IMG/VR virus record: IMGVR_UViG_3300017746_000009
Location: 1-62,781 of that record
Origin: a virus
Strand: one strand, 5' to 3'
Length of the DNA stretch: 62,781 nt
Below the pieces are notes generated by a model. The model was not told where the DNA came from. It did no database searches and saw only the letters and a program-made list of their open reading frames with translations. Numbering within the stretch: the stretch's first letter is position 1; every line of letters starts with the position of its first letter. Shown here in pieces: positions 4,935-62,781 of the stretch. The translations under genes and the position numbers were made by a program.

Positions 4935-4975
4935 AAAAAATGCCTGCTGGGTATCGAAACGGTCAACCCAGCAGG
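4935..4975 (-). terminator. Rho-independent terminator after the DUF932 gene
   Basis: A 10-bp perfect stem pairs cctgctgggt (4943-4952) with acccagcagg (4966-4975) around a 13-nt loop. On the minus strand it is followed by CA + TTTTTT (4935-4940). Confidence 0.7.
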
Positions 4976-4987
4976 ACTTTGAGGTAT

Positions 4988-6016: not shown

Positions 6017-6098
6017 ATTTATCTCCGTTATGTATTGGTTTAATTACCTAATACTGATATTAGTTTAAATTAACCACTAAAAGATAATAGTTATGTTG

Positions 6099-13234: not shown

Positions 13235-13241
13235 GTTAATA

Positions 13242-13291
13242 TTTTACTTTACTTGTAAAGTAAAAGTATAGGAATATTGGCAAAATTGCAA
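13242..13291 (-). promoter_or_regulatory. Promoter-like element TTGCAA-N15-TATACT followed by a perfect 11-bp inverted repeat (operator or 5'-hairpin)
   Basis: On the minus strand: TTGCAA (13291-13286), TATACT (13270-13265), then ttttactttac-aa-gtaaagtaaaa, i.e. arms 13242-13252 and 13255-13265 with a 2-nt spacer, ahead of the GTG at 13234. Confidence 0.35.
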
Positions 13292-13873
13292 TCATATACC
13301 CGTTCTAAAGGTTAAGTTTACTCGCTGACCACCGCCAACTACGTTGAGCACCGAATGGGTAGCCTTCATTTGTGAATGTCCATCAAATATAAAAGCATCG
13401 CCATCTTCCATTAAATAATTAGTTAGTTCTTTCTTAGCTATGTAGTGAGTATTAATCATACTTGTAGAAGTTTCTTTTTTAATATGTCTTCTATATTCTT
13501 GCCACTGAAATATTCTAGGAGACCAAAAAGATATAGAAACAACTAAATCATCTAGTGTGGGTACGGTGTCAGAATGATGCGGTATACCCACACCATCTTC
13601 AGCATAATAACCACACAACAAAAAATTAAACTCAACGTGTCTGCCCAGCTCTTTTAAAACTAACTTTTCTGCTTTTATCTTAAATGTTTTTATATGCTCG
13701 TTCCACGGTTTAGGTTTATATAACCTACCTGCATAATTAAAATCAGAATCACCATACGCTTGAGTGTACCTACCTTTAATTTTTTTACCATCGTATATTC
13801 TATTAACAGGTTCTTCCCACTCTACTATGTGGGGGCAATCTCCAGCAAAAGCTCCTTTAATAAATTTAATCAT
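13292..13873 (-). CDS. AlkB-like 2OG-Fe(II) dioxygenase
   Basis: GIPHHSDTV (HxD), KATHSV (distal His) and the C-terminal RVNLTFRTG, matching RYNLTFRQ of E. coli AlkB. Confidence 0.75.
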   Translation of the reverse strand: MIKFIKGAFAGDCPHIVEWEEPVNRIYDGKKIKGRYTQAYGDSDFNYAGRLYKPKPWNEHIKTFKIKAEKLVLKELGRHVEFNFLLCGYYAEDGVGIPHHSDTVPTLDDLVVSISFWSPRIFQWQEYRRHIKKETSTSMINTHYIAKKELTNYLMEDGDAFIFDGHSQMKATHSVLNVVGGGQRVNLTFRTGI

Positions 13874-18289: not shown

Positions 18290-18568
18290 AGTTTATACTC
18301 TCCAGTTTTTTATATTTATCAAGCTTCTCGATTTTATACTTTATCTGTAAAAAAATAAATAAATATTTACACAACAAGTTGGCTATGTGTCTTTTATGGT
18401 TCAAGACTCTAGGCAGCACAGCCACTACCTCTACTACTACCCTATTATTATAGGGCGAAATAAATTTTATAAAAGGAAGCGTCCTAAATATTTAAGTTTA
18501 TCTAATAACTTAATAGGCAAGAGTCGCATAACCGTAGGGTAATTAACTATGCTTTAAATATTACCAAC

Positions 18569-18595
18569 CCTATTAGCGACCTATTAGCTATTAGC
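18569..18595. promoter_or_regulatory. Three tandem CCTATTAGC-type half-sites (cctattagcgacctattagctattagc) in the divergent intergenic region
   Basis: Read directly. The first 20 nt recur as a reverse complement at 60083-60102, and the last 16 nt recur directly at 59871-59886. Confidence 0.5.
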
Positions 18596-18609: not shown

Positions 18610-20106
18610 ATGTATAAGAACTTACCGTTTTTAAATTATAATATTGACAAACACCTATTATTAATGGACTTTTTATTCAAAACTAAACCCTACGACCACC
18701 AATTAGAAGCTTTAGAAAAATCTTTTAATAAAGAAGAGTTTGCTTTATTTATGGAGATGGGTTGTGGTAAATCAAAAGTAGTTATAGATAACTTTGTACA
18801 TTTACACAGAGAAGGAAAAATAAACGGTGTGTTGATTATAGCTCCTAAAGGAGTTTATGATACATGGTATAGTAAAGAAATACCGAACCACGTACCAGAA
18901 GAAATAAATTATTACTGTGTAAAGTGGTCAAACGCTAATACAAAAAAGAAACAAAAAGAAATAGAAGGTCTCTACGAAAATGAAGAAACATTAAATATAT
19001 TTATTATGAATGTTGAGGCTCTAAGCACAAAAGTAGGAACTCAAAGAGCTACAGATTTTCTATTTAAACGAAAGTGTATGTTTATTATAGATGAAAGCAC
19101 TACTATAAAAAACCATATGGCTAAACGTACACAAAATACTGTACGGATAGGAAAGTATGCATACTATAAAAGGATCCTTACAGGCTCTCCAGTTACAAAA
19201 AGTCCTCTTGACCTATATAGCCAGTCATATTTTTTAGACCCTTCTCTGCTGGGCTTTAGTAGTTACTTTGCATTTAGAAATAGATACGCTGATTTAATCG
19301 ATAGAACACTCGGTAACGGTAGAACATTTAAACATATAGTAGGTTATAAAAACTTGACAGAACTAAATGAGAAACTAAACTCTTTTAGTTATCGTGTGTT
19401 AAAAAAAGATTGTTTAGATTTACCAGATAAAGTTTATCTTAAAAGAAAGATAGCTATGACAGATGAACAAAAACGTGTGTATAAAGATATACAGAAAAAA
19501 GCCAATGCTGTATTAACTCAAGGAACAGTTACAATCAATCACATAATAACACAGATTATACGTCTTCATCAAATATCTTGTGGGTTTGTAGGTTTAGATG
19601 GAGGAGGGATTACGGAACTTAAATCTCAAAGGTTGCCTGAGCTTTTAGAAATACTAGAAGAAACAGACGGTAAAGTAATTATCTGGGCAAATTATAGACA
19701 CGATATACAAAAAATAGAAGCAGAACTTACTAGAATATACGGACAAGGAACGGTAGGAACTTATTACGGAGATGTACCACAGGAAAGAAGAGAAGAAGTA
19801 ATTAATTTATTCCAAGATCCAGAAAGTAGTCTTAGGTTTTTTGTAGGTAACACTCAAACGGGTGGTTATGGTATAACACTTACTGAAGCAAGCACCGTAA
19901 TTTACTACAGTAACAACTATGATTTAGAAAAACGTCTGCAGTCAGAAGACCGTGCTCATCGTATAGGTCAAAAAAATAAAGTAACCTACATAGATATAGT
20001 TTGTGAACGCACCGTAGATGAAAAAATAGTAACAGCTTTACGTAGAAAACAAAATATAGCTCAAACTGTTCTAGGTGAAGACCACTGGAAAAACTGGCTT
20101 TTGTAA
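18610..20106 (+). CDS. SNF2-family (SF2) helicase/ATPase
   Basis: FMEMGCGKSKV (motif I), IIDESTTIKN (DExx box) and GNTQTGGYGITLTEASTVIYYSNNYDLEKRLQSEDRAHRIGQKNKV (motifs V-VI). It is the only plus-strand gene. Confidence 0.9.
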   Translation: MYKNLPFLNYNIDKHLLLMDFLFKTKPYDHQLEALEKSFNKEEFALFMEMGCGKSKVVIDNFVHLHREGKINGVLIIAPKGVYDTWYSKEIPNHVPEEINYYCVKWSNANTKKKQKEIEGLYENEETLNIFIMNVEALSTKVGTQRATDFLFKRKCMFIIDESTTIKNHMAKRTQNTVRIGKYAYYKRILTGSPVTKSPLDLYSQSYFLDPSLLGFSSYFAFRNRYADLIDRTLGNGRTFKHIVGYKNLTELNEKLNSFSYRVLKKDCLDLPDKVYLKRKIAMTDEQKRVYKDIQKKANAVLTQGTVTINHIITQIIRLHQISCGFVGLDGGGITELKSQRLPELLEILEETDGKVIIWANYRHDIQKIEAELTRIYGQGTVGTYYGDVPQERREEVINLFQDPESSLRFFVGNTQTGGYGITLTEASTVIYYSNNYDLEKRLQSEDRAHRIGQKNKVTYIDIVCERTVDEKIVTALRRKQNIAQTVLGEDHWKNWLL

Positions 20107-41493: not shown

Positions 41494-42722
41494 TATTTAC
41501 CCTCTAATTTTTTTACCTTTTCCTCAAGTTCTTTTATGGCTTCAATAAGTAAAGGTATGAGTTTTTCGTACCAAACTGTTAGATATTTATCGTCTATTGG
41601 TGCTGCAGTTACTACTTCAGGCAGTACTGCTTGTACTTCTTGAGCAGATACTCCAACCTGTAGTCTGTCATTTTCATAACCAAGGTCTTTAGCTGTTTGG
41701 TTTTCTTGAAAGTAATAACCATTTAATTTAGCTACTTTTTCTAAAGCGTTAGGGATAGTACCTTCAAAATCTTTTAGTCTAGCATCAGAATAAAAAGCAG
41801 TAATGTTATTGGTAGCTCTAATCTCACCTGCGGTTGTTGATCCTGCTGTTCCTACACCTAAACTATTTACTTGTGCATCTGAGTTTGTACTAAAGCCACC
41901 AGCAGGTCCTGTTGGTCCAGTCGGTCCAGTCGGTCCAGTACCTCCATCGCTTCCAGCAGGACCAGTAGGTCCAGTCGGTCCTGTGCTTCCATTATTTCCA
42001 TTCGGTCCAGTTGGTCCAGTTGGTCCAGTACTACCATCACTTCCATCTGGTCCAGTAGGTCCTGTTGGTCCTGTTGGTCCAGTACTTCCGTTACTTCCAT
42101 TACTACCGTTTGGTCCAGTCGGTCCTGTTGGTCCAGTCGGTCCTGCTAATGCTGCGTTTGTAATAGTTGCTTTCCTAATAGCACCTGCTGAAGTATCGTA
42201 TACAGCTATTAAATCACTACCTGTTATTGAAGTTTCAGCGGTTTGTCCATTGACTACATCACCAATAAATTGTGTAGCTGTTATGTTACCTGTAGATAAA
42301 TTAGCAAAAGCGTCTACCATAGCAGCACCAGAACCAGAACCATTAGAATAAATAGCTTTAGTGTCTCCTGGAGCGATAGTTACTGTTGCTCCAGAACCTT
42401 GTTTAATTATTATGTTTTGAGAACCACTTGTACCGTTTTCTATAAACCAAAGTTTAGAAATAGTGTTTGGACCGATAGTAATAGTACAAGCAGAATCTAA
42501 CGTACCTGTGTATTTAAGATACATTGATCTTCCTGGATCAGTAGCACCATCAGCTACAGTTGTAGCGTGTGTATCAGCGTTAGTAGTTATTGCTTCTGTA
42601 CCGAAGCTAAATGCTTCAGCGATTAATTCTAAATTAGTGTTAGTAACCGTTCCCCAAGTACCACTTGCGTCTCCAGTAGCCATTTCATTTAATCTTAAAT
42701 CATTTACGTATGTACTTGCCAT
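41493..42722 (-). CDS. tail fibre with a collagen-like Gly-X-Y region and a C-terminal S74 intramolecular-chaperone domain
   Basis: 27 uninterrupted G-X-Y triplets (aa 194-274). The C-terminus [28 protein letters not shown]...[16 protein letters not shown]...[23 protein letters not shown] matches the S74 chaperone signature. Confidence 0.85.
41901..42143. repeat. Collagen-like triplet repeat (GPT/GSN/GPA codon repeats)
   Basis: ggtccagt(c/t)ggtcc periodicity on the plus strand; it encodes [39 protein letters not shown]... Confidence 0.9.
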
Positions 42723-42767: not shown

Positions 42768-45056
42768 TTAAGCTACCTCTTCCCAATTAGGTGTTTGAGT
42801 CTTTGTTACATCGCTGTAATTAGCTGTTTGTGTCGTGTCTACACTACTATAATTTGCAGTTTGACTGGTATCTACTAAGCCCCAAACAGTAACTCTTGGT
42901 TCTCCTAAAGTACCTACAACCCCTATTGGTATTACTTTGGCATTTAAAAGTACAGTTACATCACCTATAGCAGAAGTTCCTGCGTTTCCAGTAACTGCGG
43001 TTACTGCTCCTGCTGTTACTGTTTCATCACCTAAAGAAGAAGTAGAAGCTACAGCAGATACACCAGTAACTGCTACTGCTTGTACTGCTACCTCACCTTG
43101 TGCTGTTGTTCCTACATTCCCAGTTAATGCTGTACTAGCACCTGCTGTTACTGTTTCGTCACCTAAACTAGAAGTACCTTCAAGTCCTTCTTCTACTATT
43201 AGAGCTCCTGCTGCTACTGTTTGGTTTCCTAATGCTGAAGTACCTAAGTTACCAGTGACCGCTATATTAGCACCACACACAACACTCTCATCACCTAAAC
43301 CTGACGTAGAAGTGGTCGCTGTAACACCTTGTACTGCGTCTCCTTCAACTACTATATTACCTAAAGTAGAAGTTCCTACATTACCTGCTGGTGTTATAAG
43401 TGACTTCGCTACGACAGTTTCGCTTCCTAACGCTGAAGTTGCAGAGTTGCCTGTCACAGAAACTACCTTCGGAAGTAAAACCGACTCGTCTCCTAATTCA
43501 GTAGTAGCTGTTACTCCTTCTTCTACTATTAAAGCTCCTGCAGTAACTGTTTCAGTTCCTAATGAAGTAGTCGCTACGTTCCCAGTAACGCTTATATTAG
43601 CAGTACATACAACACTTTCATCACCTAAACCAGAAGTAGAAGTAGTCGCTGTAACCCCTTGCACTGCGTCTCCTTCAACCGTTACGTTACCTGTTGCAGA
43701 AACACCTGTTGTGCCTGACGGTATTGTAACCGACTTCGCAATTATTGTTTCACTTCCTAAAGCTGAAGTTCCTACATTACCTGTGGTAGAAACTATTTTA
43801 GGAATTACTACTTCTTCATCACCTAATGCTGAAGTTCCTGTAACTCCTTCTTCTACTATTAATGCTTTAGCAACAATAGTCTCATCACCTAATGACGAAC
43901 TTCCTGTATTACCTGTAACCGAAGCTATTTTCGGGAGACTTATTGATTCATCGCCTAATGCTGTAGTACCTATAACTCCGTCTTCTACAACTACTGCTCC
44001 TGCGGCAATTGTTTCACTTCCTAAAGCTGAAGTTCCTACATTGCCTGTAACTGAAACTATTTTCGGGAGGCTTATTGATTCATCGCCTAACGCAGTAGTT
44101 CCTACGTTTCCTGTGACAGAAACAACAACTGAGTCAGTACTAGAAACAAGTACCGTACCTAATCCTGATGTTGCTGCATTTCCGGTAACACTTGTATTAG
44201 CAGCACAAGCAACACTTTCGTCTCCTAAACCTGACGTAGATGAAGTAGCAGATACTCCTTGTACTGCTTCACCTACTACAACCGAGCTACCTAATCCAGA
44301 AGTTCCAGCTAATCCTGTTTCTACGATTAACGCTTTAGCTACAACAGTTTCACTACCTAAAGAAGTAGTTGCGGTATTACCTGTAACCGAAAATATTTTA
44401 GGAATTACAACAGATTCAGTACCTAGTGCCGTAGTTCCCGCAGTTCCCGTAACTGAAACATTAGCTGCACAAGATACGCTTTCATCTCCTAGACCTGAAG
44501 TAGAACTTGTTGCTGATACTCCTTGTACCGCTTCACCAATAACGACTGAGCTACCAAGTCCACTACTAGAAGTGTTACCTGATACTGCAATTAATGATTT
44601 TGCTACTACACTTTCAGTACCTAATGCAGAAGTACCTGCACTTCCTGTGACTAAAACTGTTTTAGGAATTACTACTTCTTCGTTTCCTAAGGAAGTAGTT
44701 CCTACATTACCTGAAACCGAAACATTAGCAGCACAAGAGACACTTTCATCACCTAAACCAGAGGTAGAGGTAGTCGCTGATACTCCTTGTACCGCTTCTC
44801 CGATTACAACTGAACTACCTAATCCAGTTGTTCCTGAAAGTCCTGTTTCTACAACCGTAGCATTACAGCTTACAGAAACAGAACCTAATCCGCTTGTAGC
44901 GGCAATTCCATCTTCTACTACATTAGCAGAACATAGAACAGTTTCTGAACCAAGTGCTGATGTGCTGTTAACACCTGTAACACTTACATCAACAGAAACT
45001 GCTGCGGGCTGACCCCACGGACCTGAGCCCCATGTGGATCGACCCCAACCTGCCAT
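42768..45056 (-). CDS. highly repetitive fibre-like structural protein (762 aa, about 30 copies of a 22-aa unit)
   Basis: Core unit (S/V)TGN.GT(S/T)(A/S)LG(D/S/T)E(S/T)V. Nested longer repeats include GLGSSVVIGEAVQGVSATSSTSGLGDESVSCAANVSV x3 and VEGDAVQGVTATTSTSGLGDESVVC x2. Confidence 0.75.
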   Translation of the reverse strand: MAGWGRSTWGSGPWGQPAAVSVDVSVTGVNSTSALGSETVLCSANVVEDGIAATSGLGSVSVSCNATVVETGLSGTTGLGSSVVIGEAVQGVSATTSTSGLGDESVSCAANVSVSGNVGTTSLGNEEVVIPKTVLVTGSAGTSALGTESVVAKSLIAVSGNTSSSGLGSSVVIGEAVQGVSATSSTSGLGDESVSCAANVSVTGTAGTTALGTESVVIPKIFSVTGNTATTSLGSETVVAKALIVETGLAGTSGLGSSVVVGEAVQGVSATSSTSGLGDESVACAANTSVTGNAATSGLGTVLVSSTDSVVVSVTGNVGTTALGDESISLPKIVSVTGNVGTSALGSETIAAGAVVVEDGVIGTTALGDESISLPKIASVTGNTGSSSLGDETIVAKALIVEEGVTGTSALGDEEVVIPKIVSTTGNVGTSALGSETIIAKSVTIPSGTTGVSATGNVTVEGDAVQGVTATTSTSGLGDESVVCTANISVTGNVATTSLGTETVTAGALIVEEGVTATTELGDESVLLPKVVSVTGNSATSALGSETVVAKSLITPAGNVGTSTLGNIVVEGDAVQGVTATTSTSGLGDESVVCGANIAVTGNLGTSALGNQTVAAGALIVEEGLEGTSSLGDETVTAGASTALTGNVGTTAQGEVAVQAVAVTGVSAVASTSSLGDETVTAGAVTAVTGNAGTSAIGDVTVLLNAKVIPIGVVGTLGEPRVTVWGLVDTSQTANYSSVDTTQTANYSDVTKTQTPNWEEVA

Positions 45057-53942: not shown

Positions 53943-54140
53943 TTATCTTACACCGCTTGAGCTAGTGTTGTATTTAACACCTTTTGTAGCTTTACCTTTA
54001 CCTTGAACTGTGCTTTGACCCTGACCGAAGATATCGCTATTAGTTTTAGTTAAAACTACCGTACCTTTAACTGGTTTTGATAAATCAATTTTATCAGGAG
54101 CAGGAACACTAACTTTTTTAAATTTAGTTGTATCTTTCAT
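53943..54140 (-). CDS. hypothetical protein (65 aa)
   Basis: 1-nt overlap with the portal gene stop. Confidence 0.5.
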   Translation of the reverse strand: MKDTTKFKKVSVPAPDKIDLSKPVKGTVVLTKTNSDIFGQGQSTVQGKGKATKGVKYNTSSSGVR

Positions 54141-56533
54141 TAGTCACCTCGACTGTCTGTATCCGATGATCTTACATCTTTCAATATCTGACCATACGTT
54201 TTGTTATTACTATCTTGAGCTTTTAAGAGTGCTTCTTCTCTATCTTGAGCTACTTTCATTTCAGCTATGGATTCTTGTGATTCTATTTTAGCAAGATCAA
54301 CCTGACTTCGTAAAGCATCACGTTCTCTTGTTGCATCTATTTCCTCACGTTTAACTTGTAAAAGAGGATCTAATTCTTGTGCTTTAGCTTGGGCTTCTGC
54401 CATAGCTTGAGCTTGACCTGTAACTTCTTGCGTAGCTTTTGCTGCAGCTGCAGCTATTTCATTCATAGCTTCTGGTGGCATCTCTTGACCTTCTTCTAGC
54501 TGAGGTAGTGGTTGACCTAAAGCAGACTCTATTTGTTGTTTATACAACATTGCTTGGTGTTCTTGTATATTAGCTTGTATAGACTGTAGTGCCATAGGGT
54601 TTTCTTGCATCATAGGATTCTGCATAAATGCTGCATGAGCAGCAATATATGCTTCATGACTTTGAAACTCAAAAGCTTTAATTGGTTGACCAAGCATTGC
54701 TGCTTGTTGTTCTGTAACTGGGTCTCTTGGCGGTACTTGTGGTAACTCAGGTAAAATTTCTTCTATATTTTTTATTTCTAAAGCTTCGTACATACGTCTA
54801 TAAGCTTCTCTCAAATTATGTATTTGAGGAGCTGCTTGTGCCATCTGTAGTTCTTGCTGAGCTAACATAACTCTTTGTGCCATACTAAATATGTTAGGAT
54901 CACTTATAGGTAGTATATCTACTCTATCATCAAAATCTGATTGTTTGATCTCTTGACTGGCTCCTGTAACCTGATACGGATATACAGGTGGGAGAGAACG
55001 GGAGAATACTCCAGCCAAGAGCCTAAACTCTTTTTTCTGAGCAAAATGAAGACGTTTATGTATAGCAGACATTACTTTTGTGCCACGTTCTAGCATAGCT
55101 ACTGTGGTTCCTACTGGTAATTGTTGGCTTCCTATGTCGCCTACTTGCATATCAGCAATAGAAGCAAACCTTCTACCACTGTCGATTAATAAACCTAATA
55201 ACTGACTTAATACGTTGCTTGGTTCTTTATACGGTAAAGGCATAAGAGCATCTCTTATTACTCCTCCTGGCACATCAACATCTCTAAATTCTCCAGGACG
55301 TAACGGTTCATCTTCTCCTTGTACTCTCATACCTCTAGCTTTAAAACCAGCAGGTAGGTTACTTAGTGTACCAGCATCTATTAATTGACGTAAAACAGAA
55401 GTAGCTGATTTAGTTAAACCACCAATCATGTGTATTAAACCAAAACCATAAAACCCTAGTCCTGGCAAAAATTTATAATGTACAAAATATTCTTTTTTAC
55501 GGAACAAATTATCATTCATATCCCAGTTTCTACGTATAGCGAGGATCTCATTTGAGTCTTCAAGGATAGTAACTATGTATGGTACACCAAAATCATACTC
55601 ATCTATGCCTTCTAGCTCTAAATTTACATGAAACTCAAGCAAAGTGTACTCGGTATAGTCACTAGTCGGCTTACTAAGACCTTGTAACTCGTCCATTTTG
55701 TCTTTTGCGTCGTCATAATCAATAATTCCAGGGTCTCCAATGTCAATATCACGGTAAATACCATTTAATTGCATTTTTCTAATGTCATTTCCTGTCATAT
55801 TGATGACATGGGTGATTCTTGGGCTAGTTTCTAGGTTAGTTGTGTCATAACTGACGACTAAATCTTCTGCTTTTACAAAACTAGCGGTAGCACGGCTTAA
55901 AAGTGAGTCAAAATACACTTTTTTAAAGGCAGATCCCGCCAAAGGTAGGTAAAACAGTAAACTATCCATATCTGGGTCATATTCTTCCATGACTTCAGTG
56001 ATTTGGTAGTTCATAAACTCTTTTACACGTTGACTTTGAGCCATAACTTCCCTATTTTCTGCTCCAACTATACGAGTTTTGACTGGACCAGACGCAGGAA
56101 GTAGTTCTTTGTATGCTTGTGCTTGAAATTGTGTAGCAGCTTCTGCTAAAATAGGGTGAGTTACTCCACTTGCACCAGGAAAAGGTTCGTCACGGTCTTC
56201 TGTTTTTATACCGAGTAAATCTAAACCTTCTGTAAATGTTTGTAACCACTCTTCACGTGACTCTTTGTCTTCTTCATAAGCAGAAGAAAGCTCTGAACTT
56301 AGTTCACTTAATTTTTCAGGCGGTAAAACATCTGCTAAGTTTTGATTATGTTCGTTTGTTGCTTGTTGTTCTTGATCGACCACGGGCACCATTTGACCAT
56401 CCGCTGACATTTGAAACTCAACAGCAGGTTCTTCACCTTCTTCTATTTCTATCGTAATTTCTTCAGCGTCTGCTAAACTTTCTTTAAATGGACTTTCACC
56501 TTTATTTGGATATCTTTGTACTTCTATCGCCAT
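54140..56533 (-). CDS. portal protein
   Basis: A 797-aa ORF immediately downstream of the large terminase gene, with an acidic N-terminus and a long Gln/Ala/Glu-rich helical C-terminus. The call rests on position and size. Confidence 0.6.
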   Translation of the reverse strand: MAIEVQRYPNKGESPFKESLADAEEITIEIEEGEEPAVEFQMSADGQMVPVVDQEQQATNEHNQNLADVLPPEKLSELSSELSSAYEEDKESREEWLQTFTEGLDLLGIKTEDRDEPFPGASGVTHPILAEAATQFQAQAYKELLPASGPVKTRIVGAENREVMAQSQRVKEFMNYQITEVMEEYDPDMDSLLFYLPLAGSAFKKVYFDSLLSRATASFVKAEDLVVSYDTTNLETSPRITHVINMTGNDIRKMQLNGIYRDIDIGDPGIIDYDDAKDKMDELQGLSKPTSDYTEYTLLEFHVNLELEGIDEYDFGVPYIVTILEDSNEILAIRRNWDMNDNLFRKKEYFVHYKFLPGLGFYGFGLIHMIGGLTKSATSVLRQLIDAGTLSNLPAGFKARGMRVQGEDEPLRPGEFRDVDVPGGVIRDALMPLPYKEPSNVLSQLLGLLIDSGRRFASIADMQVGDIGSQQLPVGTTVAMLERGTKVMSAIHKRLHFAQKKEFRLLAGVFSRSLPPVYPYQVTGASQEIKQSDFDDRVDILPISDPNIFSMAQRVMLAQQELQMAQAAPQIHNLREAYRRMYEALEIKNIEEILPELPQVPPRDPVTEQQAAMLGQPIKAFEFQSHEAYIAAHAAFMQNPMMQENPMALQSIQANIQEHQAMLYKQQIESALGQPLPQLEEGQEMPPEAMNEIAAAAAKATQEVTGQAQAMAEAQAKAQELDPLLQVKREEIDATRERDALRSQVDLAKIESQESIAEMKVAQDREEALLKAQDSNNKTYGQILKDVRSSDTDSRGD

Positions 56534-56549: not shown

Positions 56550-58064
56550 TTAATAGTAACTTATTTTCTTCTTATATAAAACCTCTTCTTCATAATCAGA
56601 AGGAAGCTGTATAAACCCACCTTGTCTAAACCTTAACATTGCTTGTGTTGTTGAGTCAACTAAATCATCGTGGTCACCTGCTGGAAACGCAGCACACTCT
56701 TCAATAACTTCTTGTGCCCATGTTGTATCAGGATACCAAACCATGCCAGACTCGAACAATGGAGCACAAGCATTGACTCTTGATATCTTGTCATTACCAC
56801 GAGAAGGTGTAAAATTCTGCACAGGTATACCTACGTTTCTTAGTTCTTGAGTGAGAGGCATACCAGAAGCTTTACCTTCTATTATGACACTGTCAGGTTC
56901 CCAATGTTCATACTGTTCTAAAGCAAGAGCTTTGAGTTCTGGAAAATTATATCTTCCTTTAATTACATCTAGTAGAATAATATGCGGTGCATTACCGTGA
57001 TATATTTCTTCGCCACCTAGTCTACCTTCTGGATAAAATACTCCCCAAGTAGTGATCGCTGAATAATCTGCCATCTCTGATTTTAAAAACGCAGTATCGT
57101 AACTTTGAATAATATAATCACATTGAGGAGGTTCTCTATTTGGCCATTCTTTCCACCATTCTCTTTTAATTAGTGCTCCTTCTTCTGAAGTTGGATTCTG
57201 CATGTATTGTGCGTGCCACTTAGGACCGCCACGTAAAGAAGCTTTTACACTTTCTAATTCTTCTATACTCCAATAACTTTCCCACAGCGGTTTACCACTA
57301 GGTAAAATAGCAGGTAGCTCAATAAGTTCCCATTGATCTGCTTTAGGATCACGTGCGGCATCTTGTAATAAACGACCTGTTAAATCATTTACGTTCCACC
57401 TTGTCATTACAATTACGATTGCTCCTCCTGGCTGAAGACGTTGTCGTGGACCAGAAGTGTACCACTCATAAGTATCTTCCATAGATTTAGGATTCATTGC
57501 GTCTTGCTCAGAGTGTGGGTCGTCGATTATAAATAAATCGGCACCACGTCCAGCTAACGCACCACCCACACCTGCTGCATAGTATTCGCCTTTAAGTTTT
57601 GGATTACGCTTATCTTGTGTTTCCCATTTACCTGCTGCTTTACTGTCTGGGTTTATAAGGACGTTGTCAAAAACTTTTTCAAAGTCTTCCATTAACATAA
57701 GGTCACGGATTTTACGACCAAACTTTACAGCAAGGTCGGCGGTGTGAGTTGCTTGTAATATTTTAAGTGAAGGATTACGACCAACTAAATAAGCAGGGAA
57801 CATGTGCGACGCAAACTCTGACTTAGTGTGTCGAGGAGGCATGTTAATAATTAGACGTTTTATTTTACCGTCAGCTATACGGTCAAAGGCTTCTGCCATA
57901 ACTTTGTGATGAGCACCTTCAATAAAACTTGGCCACTGAGTACGGACAAAAGATAGAAAGTTTTTTTGAGCTTTTTCTACTTTTTCAAGTTCTTCTAGTC
58001 TTTCTGCTAGTTCTAGGTGTTCTTTGAGAACATCTTCTGAAAGATTCTCTAAGTTATTTTCCAT
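56550..58064 (-). CDS. terL: terminase large subunit
   Basis: A Walker A-like element INMPPRHTKSEF, Walker B ADLFIIDDPHSE, the coupling motif VMTRWN, and C-terminal RNaseH-like nuclease acidic residues (IQSYDTAF, GDHDDLVDSTTQA). Confidence 0.85.
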   Translation of the reverse strand: MENNLENLSEDVLKEHLELAERLEELEKVEKAQKNFLSFVRTQWPSFIEGAHHKVMAEAFDRIADGKIKRLIINMPPRHTKSEFASHMFPAYLVGRNPSLKILQATHTADLAVKFGRKIRDLMLMEDFEKVFDNVLINPDSKAAGKWETQDKRNPKLKGEYYAAGVGGALAGRGADLFIIDDPHSEQDAMNPKSMEDTYEWYTSGPRQRLQPGGAIVIVMTRWNVNDLTGRLLQDAARDPKADQWELIELPAILPSGKPLWESYWSIEELESVKASLRGGPKWHAQYMQNPTSEEGALIKREWWKEWPNREPPQCDYIIQSYDTAFLKSEMADYSAITTWGVFYPEGRLGGEEIYHGNAPHIILLDVIKGRYNFPELKALALEQYEHWEPDSVIIEGKASGMPLTQELRNVGIPVQNFTPSRGNDKISRVNACAPLFESGMVWYPDTTWAQEVIEECAAFPAGDHDDLVDSTTQAMLRFRQGGFIQLPSDYEEEVLYKKKISYY

Positions 58065-59031
58065 ACTTATCTAGATTAAATAATTCTTTAAACTTGTCGG
58101 CATCGTATTTATTACTTATGCCCTGATCTTTTAAACTTATGACAGTGTCTCCTCTGCTTTTAAGAGTAGCAGGATAATAAAGCGAATCATAATCCATATT
58201 TTTAAAAACATTAGGTAGGTTTTCATTTTTAGAAAACATTATAGGATAAGCGTTTCTTACATTAGGGTTTTTAGAAACCATAGCTTCTAGTTTAAGTGCT
58301 GCGCTTTCATCTCCAGCAGACCTAAGTCTTTTAGCTTCTTGTAATAATTTGTCAATAGTCTTTTTATCTAAGTCTTGAGGTTGAAAAGTTTTTCCAAAAT
58401 TAGGGTAATTGACTCGATAAATAGAACCGATACCTTGTGAATAGTCCATGAGCCTCGGATCACTTGCTAGGTTTGAGTAATAACTTCCTGGTTTTAAAGA
58501 ATCTATTCCTGTATCTTTTGAGCCATGAAACATGGGACCTTTTGAATTTACTCTACCTGCTGTTTCTTTGCCTTTATTACCTGATAGAAAACCAGCACGT
58601 GTTTGAATCACATTTAGTATTTTGTTGGTTTGGTCTTTTAATACTTTTTCAGTTTCAAATGGTTCGTCTACGCTTTTTGTAATACGTTCCATTTGATTTG
58701 TATATTCATCTATTATTTGTCTATTAGCGACGGGAAGATCTTTTGCTCCCAAGTTAGAAACTTTATCTATCACCATCTGCATTGCTTTTTTACTCATAGG
58801 CTTGGCTAAAGCAAATCCAGGTATAAGGTCTAAAGCAGCAAAGCTGGCATCTGTTCCAGTTTTATCACTTAATTCATAGGAGAGTAAAGGTAATAAACCA
58901 AGTGCACCTTTACCTGTTTTAAAGATATCTTTAAGTCCTTCTTCAGCACTCTTATCTGAAACAGCCAAGGGTGGAGCCAACACTCCACTTCTTGTATCAC
59001 CGATTAAAGAAGTTAAACCAAATTCTGCCAT
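58054..59031 (-). CDS. hypothetical protein (325 aa), first gene of the late operon
   Basis: ORF overlapping terL by 11 nt; no family assigned. Confidence 0.6.
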   Translation of the reverse strand: MAEFGLTSLIGDTRSGVLAPPLAVSDKSAEEGLKDIFKTGKGALGLLPLLSYELSDKTGTDASFAALDLIPGFALAKPMSKKAMQMVIDKVSNLGAKDLPVANRQIIDEYTNQMERITKSVDEPFETEKVLKDQTNKILNVIQTRAGFLSGNKGKETAGRVNSKGPMFHGSKDTGIDSLKPGSYYSNLASDPRLMDYSQGIGSIYRVNYPNFGKTFQPQDLDKKTIDKLLQEAKRLRSAGDESAALKLEAMVSKNPNVRNAYPIMFSKNENLPNVFKNMDYDSLYYPATLKSRGDTVISLKDQGISNKYDADKFKELFNLDKYGK

Positions 59032-59183
59032 ATCAAAAATAAATTTTGCAAAAAAATTTTTACACTCTGTTTTCTAACGATAGTGTAGTTCGCATAGTCG
59101 GAAAAGTAAATATCTTATCTAATGTCTCTTTAAAACTGAGCCGAAGGCTTACGTATGTTAGCCTTCGTTAAGGGGGTTAGGGG

Positions 59184-59222
59184 TAAAAAAATAGGGGCTA
59201 ACTAGTAGCCCCTAAATTTTTT
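59184..59222. terminator. Bidirectional-type rho-independent terminator after ORF 59233-59457
   Basis: The stem pairs taggggct (59192-59199) with agccccta (59207-59214) around a 7-nt loop. It is flanked by an A-run (59185-59191) and a T-run (59217-59222). Confidence 0.65.
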
Positions 59223-59232
59223 ACTAAGTTTT

Positions 59233-59457
59233 TTAGCTAATAGTAATAGCCCCCGTTTTTACTAGGTACTTTAAATCCGTACTATTACCTAGCCTATTAT
59301 TTATAGCGTAGGTTACCGTTTTACCGTTAACCGCTTTTACCCTAGCGTTATTATGGTCCGCCCTTAGTACCTTACCCGTAGCGGTTATAGTAGCGTTAGC
59401 GTTTAACCCGCCTAAGTAAGTAGGGTTAGTAGTTTTTTTAGTAGTAGTATTAGTCAT
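59233..59457 (-). CDS. small Thr/Lys-rich protein with a C-terminal D(L/I)KY...G motif; atypical codon usage
   Basis: MTNTTTKKTTNPT...VNGKTVTYAINNRLGNSTDLKYLVKTGAITIS. It uses AGG, CTA, ACG, GCG and GGG codons, which look rarer in neighbouring genes. Confidence 0.55.
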   Translation of the reverse strand: MTNTTTKKTTNPTYLGGLNANATITATGKVLRADHNNARVKAVNGKTVTYAINNRLGNSTDLKYLVKTGAITIS

Positions 59458-59528
59458 AATATTTACCGTATATAAAGGCTATTTATTAAAGTTACTAAAT
59501 ACCGCCTTTTTTAATATTTAGTAAAGCT

Positions 59529-59558
59529 ATTATAAAACTTTTTTTATTTAAAAGTAAA
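59529..59558 (-). promoter_or_regulatory. sigma70-like promoter candidate TTTACT-N18-TATAAT upstream of ORF 59233-59457
   Basis: Minus strand: TTTACT (59558-59553) and TATAAT (59534-59529). The aaaagtaaagg element is duplicated at 59550 and 59574. Confidence 0.3.
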
Positions 59559-59687
59559 GGTTTATATTTATATAAAAGTAAAGGGTTTTTTTAACACATT
59601 AGGCATGATCAGATGATCGTATATGTGGTCCATGGTCCATGGTTCGTGTTGCAATGACAATGTGATTACATCAATAGTTTACAGACA

Positions 59688-59727
59688 ATGATCCTGTGAT
59701 TACAGCGAAGCCATGATCAGATGATCT
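59688..59727. repeat. 40-bp direct repeat, copy 1 (38/40 identical to 59755-59794)
   Basis: atgatcctgtgattacagcgaagccatgatcagatgatct. Confidence 0.9.
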
Positions 59728-59754
59728 TACACCATGGTCCATAGTTCATGGATC

Positions 59755-59794
59755 ATGATCCTTGGATTACAGCGAAGCCATGATCAGATGATCT
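59755..59794. repeat. 40-bp direct repeat, copy 2 (67-bp period)
   Basis: atgatccttggattacagcgaagccatgatcagatgatct. Confidence 0.9.
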
Positions 59795-60082
59795 GTGTGA
59801 ACATCAGATGATGCATAGATCTTTTGATCGTGGGATGTTGTTGTAGTATAATAGATCATGGTCCATGGATCCTATTAGCTATTAGCTGATTCATGGACCA
59901 CCGTTCCCGACTCATATATTTTTGTACGTTGTCCGTGCTCCTTGGTTAAGTAGGTTCTATATATAGGTCTACAAGATCCAATATCCTTATCTAAAAGATG
60001 TATTGCTCGTTTTATCACGAGTGTTGAGAGTTACCAACTTATTACCAAGACCATGGTCCATGATCCATATTATCTACATTTT

Positions 60083-60102
60083 GCTAATAGGTCGCTAATA
60101 GG
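60083..60102. promoter_or_regulatory. Inverted copy of the 20-nt cctattagcgacctattagc element of 18569-18588
   Basis: gctaataggtcgctaatagg was read directly and is the exact reverse complement. Confidence 0.5.
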
Positions 60103-60231
60103 TTAGCCAATAACCACTTCATAAGGACTTGCGACAGTAGTTATAGCGTATTAGATATTGGCTTATTGGCTAGAGTAAGATATTTACAAGTTTTGTGAAT
60201 TAATTTTTGGGGATGCTAATATAGTAACAGC

Positions 60232-60672
60232 TTAACCTACTGCTATTTTAAACTTAAAGAATTCAGTTAAAGCACTTGACCCGTAACTACCATTTAAGGA
60301 TAAAGCAATAAAGACATCTATTACGTAATACTCATCATATGTCTCATTGGTTGTTTCACCTTTTTTACGATCACCGTAACCTACTTCAATAATATTATAA
60401 CCGCTTGATGCTTGATCGTTTAGCCTTGATGAATCATAAACCGTAAACCATTCTTTAGGCAGTTCAGCATATACTTTATCTTCACATGCTTCAGCATCTC
60501 CTGAGTGAACTTCATTAAAGTACCAAGCTACTTCATCGGGAGCTTTACTAAGCAAGTCTGACATAATACGTATTACCGTATCCTGTTCAACACCGTTACT
60601 TATAACATCTTTGATGTCAATAGGTATATTATTCTTAGGTATTATTTCCCAACCGTTTTTAAATTTATTCAT
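60232..60672 (-). CDS. hypothetical acidic protein (146 aa)
   Basis: ORF with GAGGA before the ATG and a promoter-like element upstream. Confidence 0.6.
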   Translation of the reverse strand: MNKFKNGWEIIPKNNIPIDIKDVISNGVEQDTVIRIMSDLLSKAPDEVAWYFNEVHSGDAEACEDKVYAELPKEWFTVYDSSRLNDQASSGYNIIEVGYGDRKKGETTNETYDEYYVIDVFIALSLNGSYGSSALTEFFKFKIAVG

Positions 60673-60993: not shown

Positions 60994-61161
60994 TTAACCG
61001 TTATTATTAGCATCAAACCATGCTTTACTTGCTGCCCTGATGGCGTTAGTTCTACCAATCTTGGCTCCCGTTTGTTGTGATAACATTTCCGCAATATAGT
61101 CTATATCTTCGGCTACATCTTCTGGTAATGCTACATTCACACGTTTTTCTTGATTACTCAT
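60994..61161 (-). CDS. ribbon-helix-helix (CopG/Arc-like) DNA-binding protein, 55 aa (not in the ORF track)
   Basis: GAGGT precedes the ATG at 61161. My translation is MSNQEKRVNVALPEDVAEDIDYIAEMLSQQTGAKIGRTNAIRAASKAWFDANNNG, whose RVNVALPEDV beta-strand plus two helices is the RHH pattern. Confidence 0.6.
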   Translation of the reverse strand: MSNQEKRVNVALPEDVAEDIDYIAEMLSQQTGAKIGRTNAIRAASKAWFDANNNG

Positions 61162-61283: not shown

Positions 61284-61592
61284 TTAGGCAAGGACCATAA
61301 ACCCTTTATCAAGGTCATACTTGATATCACGAGCGTCAACTAATCTAGACGCTAGTGCTTCCTCAACGGTTTTACCGTTAAGCTCTTTCTGACGATGGAT
61401 ATTTTGGTCAGACCTTGGGGTCTTCTCAAAGTTAGCTTTTAATAAAGCGTTTAAGTCAAGACCACCAGACCTAACATTTGCCTTAGTTGCCTGAGCGACA
61501 GACGCAAGACTTTTAGTAGGTGTGATAGTTACCGTTTGTGATGCCACAGCTTTTTTAGTTGTGGACTTTTTAGTAGTAGCAGATTTTGCCAT
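61284..61592 (-). CDS. Lys/Thr-rich small protein with a C-terminal DIKYD..G motif (possible DNA-binding protein)
   Basis: MAKSATTKKSTTKKAVA... and LNGKTVEEALASRLVDARDIKYDLDKGFMVLA. Confidence 0.55.
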   Translation of the reverse strand: MAKSATTKKSTTKKAVASQTVTITPTKSLASVAQATKANVRSGGLDLNALLKANFEKTPRSDQNIHRQKELNGKTVEEALASRLVDARDIKYDLDKGFMVLA

Positions 61593-62554: not shown

Positions 62555-62781
62555 TTAATCGTTATCTTGTAAGGCAGAAGGACTTAGCCAACCAGAAAAG
62601 TGTTCAGCTTCGTCTTCAAAGTACCATTTAAGTTGTATATGTTCAGTATTTTTAAAAGGTGCTGACCGTATAGGACTAAATAAATAGTCAAGCAAAGCAC
62701 CATATACAGGTATAGGTTCAGCCCATGCTGTATAAAACGTATAAGTAATACAATCATCATCTATCTCAAAGGTAGCATCAA
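62555..62781 (-). CDS. DUF1281/Api92-like protein, 3' part (same ORF as 1-484 read through the terminal overlap)
   Basis: In-frame continuation ...YLFSPIRSAPFKNTEHIQLKWYFEDEAEHFSGWLSPSALQDND with stop TAA at 62557-62555. Confidence 0.6.
   Translation of the reverse strand, partial: DATFEIDDDCITYTFYTAWAEPIPVYGALLDYLFSPIRSAPFKNTEHIQLKWYFEDEAEHFSGWLSPSALQDND
62659..62781. repeat. Terminal overlap copy 2 (identical to 1-123)
   Basis: Direct reading. Confidence 0.95.

What the first reader, a model, noticed from the sequence alone, without database searches (positions are those of the whole stretch)
59458..60231. 770-bp non-coding hub with a GATC cluster and three interleaved repeat families (candidate origin or packaging/regulatory centre)
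This is the only long ORF-free stretch of the genome, and it lies between the small early-type genes and the late (terminase) operon. I counted 13 GATC sites within 59607-59871 (265 bp), where roughly one would be expected by chance for a 4-mer in AT-rich DNA. The repeat families are as follows. (1) catgatcagatgatc occurs three times (59604, 59712, 59779), and two of these copies lie inside 40-bp direct repeats that are 38/40 identical with a 67-bp period (59688-59727, 59755-59794). (2) The (c)catggtccat(g) motif occurs at 59627-59642 (tandem), 59732, 59857 and 60050, with an inverted copy at 59892. (3) CCTATTAGC-type sites occur at 59871-59886 and 60083-60102. (4) There are ccaataa/ttattgg inverted elements at 60103-60171. 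GATC clustering together with iterons is the classic architecture of Dam/SeqA-controlled origins. Alternatively, being just upstream of the terL operon, the region could contain the pac/terminal-repeat boundary or binding arrays for a phage regulator.
Basis: seen in the sequence. Interest (0 to 1): 0.7.

Follow-up and report, generated by a model that had tools for sequence, protein, structure and literature searches.

The report
Conserved phage early-control repeat hub
The 774-bp gene-free stretch is a real block of protein-binding DNA repeats, conserved in a very abundant group of marine phages, and it most likely controls the phage's earliest promoter rather than acting as a Dam/SeqA-type replication origin.

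Summary
There are 13 GATC in 59607-59871 where about 0.5 are expected (Poisson P about 1e-14).

The phage belongs to the HTVC023P-type marine podoviruses. The hub is conserved in at least 25 related metagenomic contigs, and its distal half is more conserved than the flanking genes. No RNA structure, Rfam family or conserved ORF was found, so it acts as DNA.

In transcription order it contains GCYAATAG sites arranged two forward, a 42-bp spacer, three reverse, then two forward. These are interleaved with RTGGWCC heptad arrays. GATC/CATG-rich repeats follow, then a conserved sigma-70-type promoter (TTTACT-N18-TATAAT), a 74-aa orphan gene, terminators and a second promoter.

The forward-spacer-reverse site module recurs upstream of the only plus-strand gene. 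No DnaA boxes and no phage adenine methyltransferase motif were found. Hub GATCs are mostly oriented ATGATC words.

In the cultured relative HTVC027P, published RNA-seq classes only the genes flanking the equivalent gap as Early in the rows read, with gp35 the first to rise.

Best reading is an early-promoter operator or enhancer region (about 0.45). A phage-specific origin (about 0.22) and a pac site (about 0.1) remain open.

The parts
59458..60231 (-). Whole non-coding hub, read in the direction of transcription (- strand). It runs from the stop codon of the 146-aa gene to the ATG of the 74-aa gene.
   Evidence: It is conserved in relatives.
60209..60230 (-). Conserved block CTGTTACTATATTAGCATCCCC immediately after the upstream gene's stop codon. 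Function unknown.
   Evidence: Alignment A3, columns 12-34.
60155..60170 (-). A sites: two direct GCCAATAA/GCCAATAT sites.
   Evidence: (I22). Near-invariant in 15 aligned hubs.
60083..60113 (-). B sites: TTATTGGC, CTATTAGC and CTATTAGC. These are three sites inverted relative to A and lie 42 bp from it.
   Evidence: The 27-bp element is found with at most 4 mismatches in 25 related loci. It is the most invariant block of A3. 31 viral contigs carry the exact 16-mer.
60031..60068 (-). Heptad array H1 (ATGGATC ATGGACC ATGGTCT TGGTAAT), followed by a second TGGTAA.
60006..60021 (-). Short palindrome or hairpin CTCGTgataaaACGAG. Relatives have GACataaaaCGTC or ACATaaagcATGT at the same place.
   Evidence: Read by eye from A3, columns 233-250. 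Not tested statistically.
59954..59966 (-). Conserved CTATATATAGAAC box.
   Evidence: It is the only exact copy in the window; near-matches at 2 mismatches (4) are at chance level, 3.8 expected. It is conserved in A3.
59890..59901 (-). Heptads H2 (GTGGTCCATGAA), inverted relative to H1, H3 and H4.
   Evidence: I12, I18, I20.
59872..59886 (-). C sites: two direct GCTAATAG sites in the same orientation as A.
59854..59870 (-). Heptads H3 (ATCCATGGACCATGATC).
59824..59852 (+). Antisense promoter-like site TTGATC-17-TATAAT. The TATAAT/TACAAT hexamer is kept in relatives.
   Evidence: The relatives were read by eye. Whether it is used is unknown.
59601..59831 (-). Promoter-proximal GATC/CATG-rich repeat region. 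It holds 11 of the 13 clustered GATC, three (C)ATGATCAGATGATC words, the 57-nt direct repeats 59671-59727 and 59738-59794, CTGTGATTACAG near-palindromes and heptads H4 (59626-59648).
   Evidence: The sequence is not conserved beyond L004/L005, but a GATC cluster is present at the same place in 12 of 15 non-redundant hubs.
59529..59590 (-). AT-rich promoter region. It has two CCTTTACTTTT boxes, a -35 TTTACT (59558-59553), an 18-nt spacer and a -10 TATAAT (59534-59529).
   Evidence: (D7). A TTTACT-N16-18-TAnnnT site is present in 45 of 55 distinct upstream regions of this gene family.
59233..59457 (-). 74-aa orphan protein, the first gene downstream of the hub. It has a Lys/Thr-rich tail and a compact alpha/beta domain.
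   Evidence: AlphaFold2 model with pLDDT 90. Only weak winged-helix-like fold matches.
59142..59214 (.). Two hairpins ending the small-gene cassette. The first is a bidirectional intrinsic terminator at 59192-59214 and the second is the hairpin CGAAGGCT/AGCCTTCG at 59142-59167.
59041..59110 (-). Second promoter of the same type (TTTACT 59110-59105, N17, TACACT 59087-59082), followed by the palindromic leader AAAAATTTTTTTGCAAAATTT (59064-59041) just before the ATG at 59031.
   Evidence: The leader element is present before an ATG in 32 related loci.
18501..18595 (+). Second copy of the A-spacer-B module (TCTAATAA CTTAATAG, about 53 bp of spacer, CTATTAGC x3), in the divergent intergenic region upstream of the only + strand gene, an SNF2-type helicase.
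   Evidence: It is conserved in L100 and L104.

Best explanation
The stretch is the cis-acting control region of the phage's early transcription unit. It is a DNA platform of several families of short protein-binding repeats placed directly upstream of a strong sigma-70-type promoter.

Order of elements in the direction of transcription (- strand):
- A conserved distal half. GCYAATAG sites are arranged two forward (A), a 42-bp spacer, three reverse (B), and later two forward (C). They are interleaved with arrays of contiguous RTGGWCC heptads, a TGGTAA pair and a CTATATATAGAAC box.
- A fast-evolving proximal half made of oriented GATC/CATG words (ATGATCAGATGATC, CTGTGATTACAG).
- An AT-rich promoter, TTTACT-N18-TATAAT.
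- A self-contained cassette: the 74-aa orphan gene plus two hairpins.
- A second promoter of the same type, for a hypervariable gene and then terL.

Proposed mechanism (inferred, not shown). Host RNA polymerase starts here when the DNA enters the cell. Phage-encoded DNA-binding proteins, and possibly host ones, then fill the repeat arrays cooperatively to boost or shut off this promoter. The best candidate binder is the small winged-helix-like family that always sits next to the hub. The same GCYAATAG-binding factor also acts at the second module in front of the helicase gene.

On this reading the GATC excess is a property of the repeated operator words, not a Dam/SeqA signal.
For: Shown directly:
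1. The repeats are real and unique to this place.
2. The element works as DNA.
   - No Rfam family matches.
   - RNAalifold gives only -9 kcal/mol over 416 columns, with a covariation term of -0.3.
   - Hub ORFs are not conserved.
3. The distal half is kept at 68-79% nucleotide identity in phages whose flanking genes no longer match by blastn. Its binding-site blocks are invariant.
4. The proximal promoter is conserved in form. TTTACT-N16-18-TAnnnT occurs in 45 of 55 distinct upstream regions of the small-gene family, and the same type precedes the next gene.
5. The A-spacer-B module is duplicated upstream of the helicase gene and is conserved there in relatives. Regulators have several operators, whereas a pac or cos site is single.
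6. GATC lies within 30 nt upstream of the -35 in 19 of 48 distinct promoters of this family, including ones outside the hub. The background is 8.6%.
7. The same layout, repeats then an AT-rich tract then a near-consensus promoter then a few small or variable genes then terL, is seen with unrelated repeat sequences in HTVC023P and HTVC027P.
8. In HTVC027P RNA-seq, among the rows read (gp02-gp36 with gaps, and gp40), the only genes classed Early are gp34-gp36. These flank the 548-bp gap 2.3 kb upstream of terL. gp35 reaches about 94,000 TPM in the second triplet of TPM columns, about 10,000 or less for every other gene listed there except gp36 (about 100,000) and the row before gp40 (about 80,000). 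It peaks near 215,000, and terL is Late (PMC12753301, Table S3). That the unread rows gp37-gp39 are also Early is inferred from the high early TPM in the row just before gp40.
9. The gene slot downstream of the hub is hypervariable, which is typical of early host-takeover genes.
Against: - No binding, transcription-start or timing data exist for this phage. The HTVC027P parallel is positional, not sequence homology.
- The conserved distal half starts more than 300 bp from the promoter. It is more conserved than phage operators usually are, which would fit an origin or a packaging site recognised by conserved machinery.
- Iteron-like repeats next to an AT-rich tract and a promoter are also the classic anatomy of phage origins.
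- The proposed binder is unproven. The small protein gives only weak winged-helix fold matches with E above 1. The nearby RHH gene has homologues in only 3-4 related loci.
- No convincing sigma-70 promoter was found next to the second module.
Confidence: 0.45

Rival explanations
1. Phage-specific origin of replication. The repeat arrays are iterons for a phage-encoded initiator, or for the primase/helicase. The AT-rich tract at 59458-59600 is the unwinding element, and transcription from the adjacent promoter activates initiation, as at the T7 primary origin or the T4 oriF/oriG origins. This could coexist with the promoter role.
For: - Dense direct and inverted repeats lie next to a stretch of about 140 bp that reads as strongly AT-rich, together with a promoter.
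- The distal half is conserved beyond the level of the flanking genes.
- The phage has its own family A polymerase, primase and helicases, and so needs its own origin.
- A second copy of the A-spacer-B module sits at the head of the replication gene block. This recalls two-part origins such as P4 ori/crr (own knowledge).
- The inverted repeats give single-strand folding z-scores of -2.5 and -3.5.
Against: - The repeats lack regular iteron spacing. The spacings are 67, 108 and 35 bp, or contiguous 7-mers.
- No recognisable initiator gene lies beside the hub.
- The AT-rich tract is fully accounted for by a conserved promoter and 5' leader.
- GC skew gives no signal, because nearly all genes lie on one strand.
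- The proximal repeats change completely between close relatives.
Confidence: 0.22
2. Packaging recognition site, meaning a pac or cosB-like array bound by small terminase. The TGATC words would be read as in the P1 pac site. Alternatively, the convergent A and B sites around a bendable spacer would be read as lambda cosB R3-I1-R2-R1 is.
For: - The hub sits upstream of terL in every relative. DSL-LC04 has GC-rich heptads directly before terL.
- 9 of the 13 clustered GATC are TGATC, and three are TGATCA.
- Two forward sites, a 42-bp spacer and three reverse sites resemble cosB geometry (the comparison is own knowledge).
- TerL is 83-98% identical across the loci that keep the distal half.
Against: - The only TerS-like gene (Terminase_2, 1753-2220) lies about 4.2 kb away. 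The 325-aa gene next to terL is hypervariable, so it is not TerS.
- The A-spacer-B module exists twice in the genome.
- There is no phage adenine methyltransferase motif and no IHF consensus.
- Contig ends of relatives show no common terminus.
- HTVC023P has a repeat array at this position with no GATC at all.
Confidence: 0.1
3. Host-type origin controlled by Dam methylation, SeqA and DnaA.
For: The GATC density matches that of E. coli oriC (13 in 265 bp), and an AT-rich tract is adjacent.
Against: - There are no conserved DnaA boxes in 14 hubs scanned.
- No methyltransferase motif is present in any phage ORF.
- The GATCs are oriented ATGATC words, 9 against 2.
- 3 of 15 related hubs lack the cluster.
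- The nearest cultured relatives infect SAR11, an alphaproteobacterium. SeqA is a gammaproteobacterial protein (own knowledge).
- The phage probably hypermodifies its thymidines.
Confidence: 0.03
4. Mainly a recombination junction. The repeats would be scars and substrates of cassette exchange, meaning gain, loss and inversion of promoter-gene-terminator modules, without a dedicated function.
For: - L004 carries an extra tandem cassette inserted between copies of the GTGATTACAG-type repeat.
- Family members occur inverted in L044, L079, L060 and L065.
- The next gene slot is hypervariable.
- Many assemblies break inside the hub.
Against: Scars would not keep invariant site blocks, a fixed site order and orientation across 25 loci. 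Nor would they recur as a module at a second conserved locus.
Confidence: 0.08

Closest known systems
Early intergenic region of Pelagibacter phage HTVC027P (gap between gp34 and gp35), and the gp25-gp26 gap of HTVC023P
   Same: - Both belong to the same phage group, with TerL 57-62% identical to the window's.
- Each has a non-coding gap of about 0.4-0.55 kb lying about 2 kb upstream of terL.
- In each gap, repeats are followed by an AT-rich tract and a near-consensus promoter: TTGACT-N17-TAAAAC in HTVC027P and TTGACA-N17-TATAAA in HTVC023P.
- In HTVC027P the flanking genes are the ones classed Early in the rows read.
   Different: - There is no sequence similarity to the window's hub, and no homologues of its small protein or of the 325-aa gene.
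- HTVC027P has one 18-bp inverted repeat with 6 GATC. HTVC023P has three direct repeats of about 58 bp and no GATC cluster.
- The HTVC027P gap is divergent, whereas the window's hub is unidirectional.
Left-end non-coding region of coliphage T7 (terminal repeat, SRL heptamer arrays, early promoters A1-A3, then gene 0.3). Comparison from own knowledge.
   Same: Both are several hundred base pairs without genes. Both hold arrays of short, roughly 7-bp repeats followed by strong host-polymerase promoters and a small first gene.
   Different: - No terminal repeat or fixed end could be shown here.
- terL lies downstream of the hub, whereas in a T7 concatemer it lies upstream of the junction.
- No phage RNA polymerase was found among the proteins scanned. 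HTVC027P is also reported to lack one.
Heptad operator arrays of the omega repressor of plasmid pSM19035, and ParR/parC-type iteron operators. Comparison from own knowledge.
   Same: Both have contiguous 7-bp repeats in direct and inverted orientation, placed upstream of promoters. In the known systems these are read cooperatively by small dimeric proteins.
   Different: - The heptad sequence differs: RTGGWCC here against WATCACW there.
- The nearby ribbon-helix-helix candidate scores below the Pfam cut-off and is missing from most relatives that keep the heptads.
- No partition ATPase was seen.
Bacteriophage P1 pac site (clusters of TGATCA/G hexamers whose Dam methylation gates cleavage). Comparison from own knowledge.
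   Same: Both have a cluster of TGATC words near packaging genes.
   Different: - The hub is not inside a terS gene.
- There is no Dam motif and no IHF site.
- The words here are ATGATC in one orientation and are mixed with other repeat families.
E. coli oriC-type origins (GATC cluster, DnaA boxes, AT-rich 13-mers, SeqA sequestration). Comparison from own knowledge.
   Same: The GATC density is similar, and an AT-rich tract is adjacent.
   Different: There are no conserved DnaA boxes. The GATC cluster is not universal among relatives. The AT-rich tract is a conserved promoter.

Membership tests
Dam/SeqA/DnaA-controlled (oriC-type) origin | Local cluster of GATC sites | tested here: met
   13 sites in 265 bp against 0.5 expected.
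Dam/SeqA/DnaA-controlled (oriC-type) origin | Several DnaA boxes (TTATCCACA-like) | tested here: not met
   One 1-mismatch box is present in the window and L004 only. None is present in the 12 other hubs scanned.
Dam/SeqA/DnaA-controlled (oriC-type) origin | A GATC adenine methyltransferase, and SeqA, available in the system | tested here: inconclusive
   No [DNS]PP[YFWH] motif occurs in any window ORF. The host is unknown: no relative was found in 185,579 reference genomes.
Iteron-type phage or plasmid origin | Three or more direct repeats of about 17-22 bp at regular, helical-phase spacing beside an AT-rich region | tested here: inconclusive
   An AT-rich tract is present. The repeats, however, are 7-8-mers or 21-57-mers at spacings of 35, 67 and 108 bp.
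Iteron-type phage or plasmid origin | An initiator gene in cis or adjacent | tested here: not met
   The neighbouring ORFs have no replication-protein matches. The primase and helicase genes are about 18 kb away on the circular map.
P1-type pac site | Two clusters of TGATCA/G hexamers flanking a cleavage site, inside the small-terminase gene, Dam- and IHF-dependent | tested here: not met
   TGATC words are present. But the region is non-coding, the TerS-like gene is at 1753-2220, and there is no Dam motif or IHF consensus.
Lambda cosB-type terminase binding region | A unique set of TerS sites in inverted arrangement around a bend, directly upstream of terS | tested here: not met
   The convergent A and B sites resemble it. 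But the module occurs twice in the genome, and no terS gene follows it.
Bacterial sigma-70 promoter with upstream operator or enhancer arrays | -35 and -10 hexamers with 16-18-bp spacing, conserved in position before the downstream gene | tested here: met
   The site is TTTACT-N18-TATAAT at 59558-59529. The same form occurs in 45 of 55 distinct family upstream regions.
Bacterial sigma-70 promoter with upstream operator or enhancer arrays | The same operator words recur at other regulated promoters | tested here: met
   The A-spacer-B module recurs at 18501-18595. GATC lies just upstream of the -35 in 19 of 48 family promoters, against 8.6% background.
Bacterial sigma-70 promoter with upstream operator or enhancer arrays | Demonstrated transcription start and demonstrated regulator binding | not testable with these tools
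   Only a positional analogue is available, the HTVC027P RNA-seq.
Omega/ParR-type heptad operators read by ribbon-helix-helix proteins | Contiguous 7-bp repeats, direct and inverted, upstream of promoters | tested here: met
   Heptads at 59626-59648, 59854-59870, 59890-59901 and 60041-60068. They are conserved in A3.
Omega/ParR-type heptad operators read by ribbon-helix-helix proteins | A cognate RHH protein co-inherited with the heptads | tested here: not met
   ORF 60994-61161 hits RHH_5 below the cut-off, 21 bits against 26. Homologues are present in only 3-4 loci.
T7-type genome left end | A physical terminus or terminal repeat next to the heptamer arrays | tested here: inconclusive
   The window is a circular assembly with a 123-bp overlap located elsewhere. 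Contig ends of relatives are enriched near the hub but fall at no common base.
Structured non-coding RNA | A conserved secondary structure with covariation, or an Rfam match | tested here: not met
   No Rfam hit reaches threshold. The alifold covariation term is -0.3, and the predicted pairs are simply the invariant inverted sites.

The most novel reading that the evidence does not exclude
The hub may be a dual-purpose nucleoprotein platform that serves as both early enhancer and phage origin. Its GATC-containing words would be read not by Dam/SeqA but by members of the orphan winged-helix-like small-protein family that always flanks it. That would be a new GATC-word-reading regulatory system, operating on thymidine-hypermodified DNA, in the HTVC023P-type phage group. 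[quoted passage not shown]
Probability: 0.15. Interest if true: 0.7.

Novelty: new variant of a known kind. Interest (0 to 1): 0.45.

Why it matters
[quoted passage not shown] How they start and time their infection is essentially unknown. In HTVC027P all early genes are of unknown function (PMC12753301).

This hub gives a concrete, conserved set of DNA words, two promoters and a candidate binder family. These can be tested directly by EMSA or DAP-seq, reporter fusions and dRNA-seq. The invariant 27-bp B element is also a handy marker for this clade in metagenomes.

If the hub proves to be an origin or a packaging site instead, it would be the first such element defined for the group. The kind of element, a phage control region built of repeats, is familiar. 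Only its composition and the proteins that read it are new.

Tried and rejected
- Nucleotide search of the hub against 50,697 phage records found no match.
- Rfam at gathering and at E-value thresholds, and tRNA search, gave nothing beyond one sub-threshold greA-leader hit over the terminator.
- RNA consensus folding of 15 hubs showed no covariation. The single-sequence z-scores of -2.5 and -3.5 are explained by the inverted binding sites.
- Hidden small genes were considered. Antisense ORFs of up to 123 aa exist in some relatives, but they are absent from the window, L004 and L027. They are translations of the conserved site blocks.
- GC skew for an origin is uninformative because nearly all genes lie on one strand.
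- A fixed terminus was sought from contig ends. 60 contig ends are enriched 2.0-3.0 kb upstream of terL, but they fall at scattered bases. This fits assembly breaks in a repeat-rich, variable region.
- The 325-aa ORF is not TerS, because it is hypervariable.
- The RHH protein as the heptad reader is not co-conserved with the heptads.
- Function of the 74-aa protein was sought in several ways.
  - PHROGs, Pfam, PDB sequence profile and two large protein searches returned only unnamed marine-metagenome relatives.
  - Foldseek against PDB and BFVD gave only weak matches, winged-helix inserts and PhiJL001 gp18.
- A host link was sought through 185,579 reference genomes. Neither the B element nor TerL was found.
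- DnaA, IHF and CtrA consensus scans of 14 hubs showed nothing conserved.
- The promoter scan next to the second module gave no convincing + strand site.
Full report
**1. What the window is.**
- The first and last 123 bp are identical, so the window is a circular assembly of about 62.66 kb.
- Nearly all genes lie on the - strand, with TerL at 56550-58064 and portal at 54140-56533.
- TerL is 57-63% identical to the cultured Pelagibacter phages HTVC027P and HTVC023P and their relatives. It is 72-98% identical to 80 IMG/VR contigs.
- It encodes the following:
  - a family A DNA polymerase, a primase and two helicases;
  - a TerS-like protein far from terL (1753-2220);
  - a thymidine-hypermodification gene set.

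**2.
- There are 13 GATC in 59607-59871. The rate outside the hub is 1.9 per kb, which gives P about 1e-14, and no other 265-bp window has more than 4.
- Tandem heptads are unique to the hub.
- The hub is the longest ORF-free stretch. The only other apparent gap is coding.
- Three refinements apply.
  - CATG is enriched as much as GATC.
  - 9 of the 15 hub GATC are ATGATC on one strand against 2 on the other.
  - The hub is separated from terL by a 74-aa gene, two hairpins, a second promoter and a 325-aa gene.

**3. It acts as DNA, not as RNA or protein.**
- Rfam finds nothing.
- A 15-sequence alignment folds to only -9 kcal/mol with no covariation. The predicted pairs are simply the invariant inverted sites.
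- ORFs inside the hub are not conserved.

**4. Comparative anatomy.** blastn of the hub against related loci gives two results.
- L005 matches throughout at 94%. L004 matches too, but carries an extra module of about 490 bp: repeats, a promoter, a paralogous small gene and a terminator.
- In more distant relatives only window 59948-60232 and parts of the small gene match, while the flanking genes do not.

A 27-bp element, TATTGGCTAnnCTATTAGCGACCTATT, is present in 25 loci. Alignment A3 shows a fixed order of invariant blocks in the direction of transcription:
- a block just after the upstream stop codon;
- the A sites, GCCAATAAGCCAATAG;
- a variable spacer of about 42 bp;
- the B sites, three inverted sites;
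- heptads of the form RTGGWCC;
- TGGTAA twice;
- GATAAAGCATGTGA;
- CTATATATAGAAC;
- CACGGACAA;
- further heptads;
- the C sites.

Downstream of C the sequence is not conserved. Even so, 12 of 15 non-redundant hubs again show a GATC cluster there. GATC is 4.7-fold and CATG 4.6-fold enriched overall, and no other 4-bp palindrome exceeds 1.7-fold. The flanks of GATC differ between relatives: TGTGATCGCA, GATCAAGGAAA x4 or GATCGGATCG. Three hubs have only 2-4 GATC, so the cluster is common but not obligatory.

**5. The proximal end is a promoter.**
- The scan finds TTTACT-18-TATAAT at 59558-59529 on the - strand. It is preceded by two CCTTTACTTTT boxes (D7).
- The downstream 74-aa ORF belongs to an orphan family. 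The window holds two further paralogues, 61284-61592 and the C-terminus of 4286-4888, and related loci hold many members.
- In 45 of 55 distinct upstream regions of family members, the same TTTACT-N16-18-TAnnnT arrangement is present.
- The gene is followed by a bidirectional terminator and a second hairpin. Next comes TTTACT-N17-TACACT and a conserved palindromic leader before the following ATG.
- That next gene is hypervariable. It is absent even from L004 and L005, whose TerL is 97-98% identical.

**6. Evidence that the repeats are regulatory words.**
- The A-spacer-B module recurs at 18501-18595, upstream of the only + strand gene. It is conserved there in two further contigs, one of which also carries the hub copy.
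- GATC occurs within 30 nt upstream of the -35 in 19 of 48 distinct promoters of the small-gene family, including promoters outside the hub. The background is 8.6%. These sequences are related to each other, so this is not an independent-sample statistic.

**7. Evidence from cultured relatives.**
- HTVC023P and HTVC027P have no sequence similarity to the hub.
- They do have the same layout about 2 kb upstream of terL: repeats, an AT-rich tract, then a near-consensus promoter.
- Published RNA-seq of HTVC027P classes gp34, gp35 and gp36 as Early. These genes flank that gap, and no other gene in the rows I read (gp02-gp36 with gaps, and gp40) carries that class.
- gp35 reaches about 94,000 TPM in the second triplet of TPM columns, which I take to be the second time point, and peaks near 215,000. 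terL is Late (PMC12753301, Table S3).
- I did not read the gp37-gp39 rows. The row just before gp40 shows a similar early rise.
- This makes the positional analogue of the hub the early promoter region of the phage. The step from HTVC027P to the window is an inference.

**8.
- No DnaA box is conserved, and no IHF or CtrA consensus is shared.
- No ORF has an adenine or N4-cytosine methyltransferase motif IV.
- The GATCs are oriented.
- Cultured relatives infect SAR11. SeqA is a gammaproteobacterial protein (own knowledge).
- The host of this phage could not be found.
- A Dam/SeqA-type origin is therefore unlikely.

**9. Tests of the terminus and pac idea.**
- Contig ends of relatives are enriched 2-3 kb upstream of terL but fall at scattered bases. 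I read this as assembly breaks in a repetitive, variable region.
- The TerS-like gene is about 4.2 kb away.
- The site module is not unique in the genome.
- A headful pac site cannot be excluded without virion reads.

**10. Who binds?**
- The 74-aa protein gives a confident AlphaFold2 model, pLDDT 90. Its fold matches are only weak: winged-helix inserts of MetAP2, PriA and an RNA polymerase III subunit, all with E above 1, and PhiJL001 gp18 at E 0.04.
- There is no Pfam or PDB sequence match.
- It is the only protein family always found next to the hub, so it is my candidate. This is inference.
- The RHH-like ORF 60994-61161 scores below the Pfam cut-off and is missing from most relatives.

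**11. Verdict.** The finding is real and conserved. The best reading is an early-promoter control region built of operator or enhancer arrays (0.45). A phage-specific origin (0.22) may overlap with it. A pac site (0.10), a pure recombination junction (0.08) and a Dam/SeqA origin (0.03) follow. The element is of a familiar kind, but its composition is new and the proteins that read it are unknown.

Noticed in passing
window 3108-13873 (- strand): A gene set for DNA thymidine hypermodification. It comprises a 5-hmdU DNA kinase (11937-12782), a thymidylate-synthase-like enzyme (9345-10355), a TET-associated glycosyltransferase (10342-10977), two 2OG-Fe(II) oxygenases (3499-4206, 13292-13873), a cytidylyltransferase-like protein (3108-3506) and an HD-type dNTP/dNMP hydrolase (11447-11947). 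The virion DNA is probably heavily modified, which would affect any protein reading the hub.
   Followed up: partly
window 18501-18595 (+ strand): A second copy of the A-spacer-B site module lies in the divergent intergenic region before the only + strand gene, an SNF2-type helicase at 18610-20106. It is conserved in L100 and L104. In L100 the ATG aligned with 18610 is followed at once by a stop, so the true helicase start is probably about 60 nt further downstream.
   Followed up: partly
window 59041-59064 (- strand); 32 related loci: A palindromic A/T element, AAAAATTTTTTTGCAAAATTT, lies 5-10 nt before the ATG of the first gene after the small-gene cassette and replaces a Shine-Dalgarno sequence. 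It is conserved in 32 loci, and a similar element precedes terL in DSL-LC04 (L003 5871-5903). It may be a translational or regulatory signal.
   Followed up: partly
window 58054-59031 (- strand): The 325-aa ORF that overlaps the terL start is hypervariable. Only L006 has a close homologue (89%), and L004 and L005, with TerL 97-98% identical, lack it. It has no family match.
   Followed up: partly
window 59233-59457, 61284-61592, 4286-4888; L004 2317-2550; L044 about 2838-2999: An orphan small-protein family moves as promoter-gene-terminator cassettes. There are three paralogues in the window, an extra tandem copy in L004 and inverted copies in L044, L079, L060 and L065. The window's 74-aa gene is nucleotide-similar to the inverted copies.
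   Followed up: yes
window 1753-2220 (- strand): The only TerS-like gene (Terminase_2, N-terminal domain) lies about 6.4 kb upstream of terL across the assembly junction, next to an HNH endonuclease (539-1198). HTVC027P and DSL-LC04 show the same separation.
   Followed up: no
window 41905-42143 and 43159-44826: Collagen-like 9-nt repeats (GGTCCAGTC) lie inside the 409-aa ORF. Long tandem repeats with periods of 330, 264 and 132 nt lie inside the 762-aa ORF. Both ORFs are probably tail-fibre proteins.
   Followed up: no
L003 (phage DSL-LC04) 5212-5914: A freshwater relative has a 700-bp gap directly upstream of terL filled with GC-rich heptads (GTGGCCC, GTGGGCC, GTGATCC). This suggests that xTGGxCC heptad arrays near terL are older than the window's clade.
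   Followed up: partly
window 1-123 and 62659-62781: A terminal 123-bp direct overlap closes the assembly into a circle. This is not a usual assembler k-mer length. Contig ends of related complete-length contigs are not at the same place, so it is probably not a real terminal repeat.
   Followed up: partly
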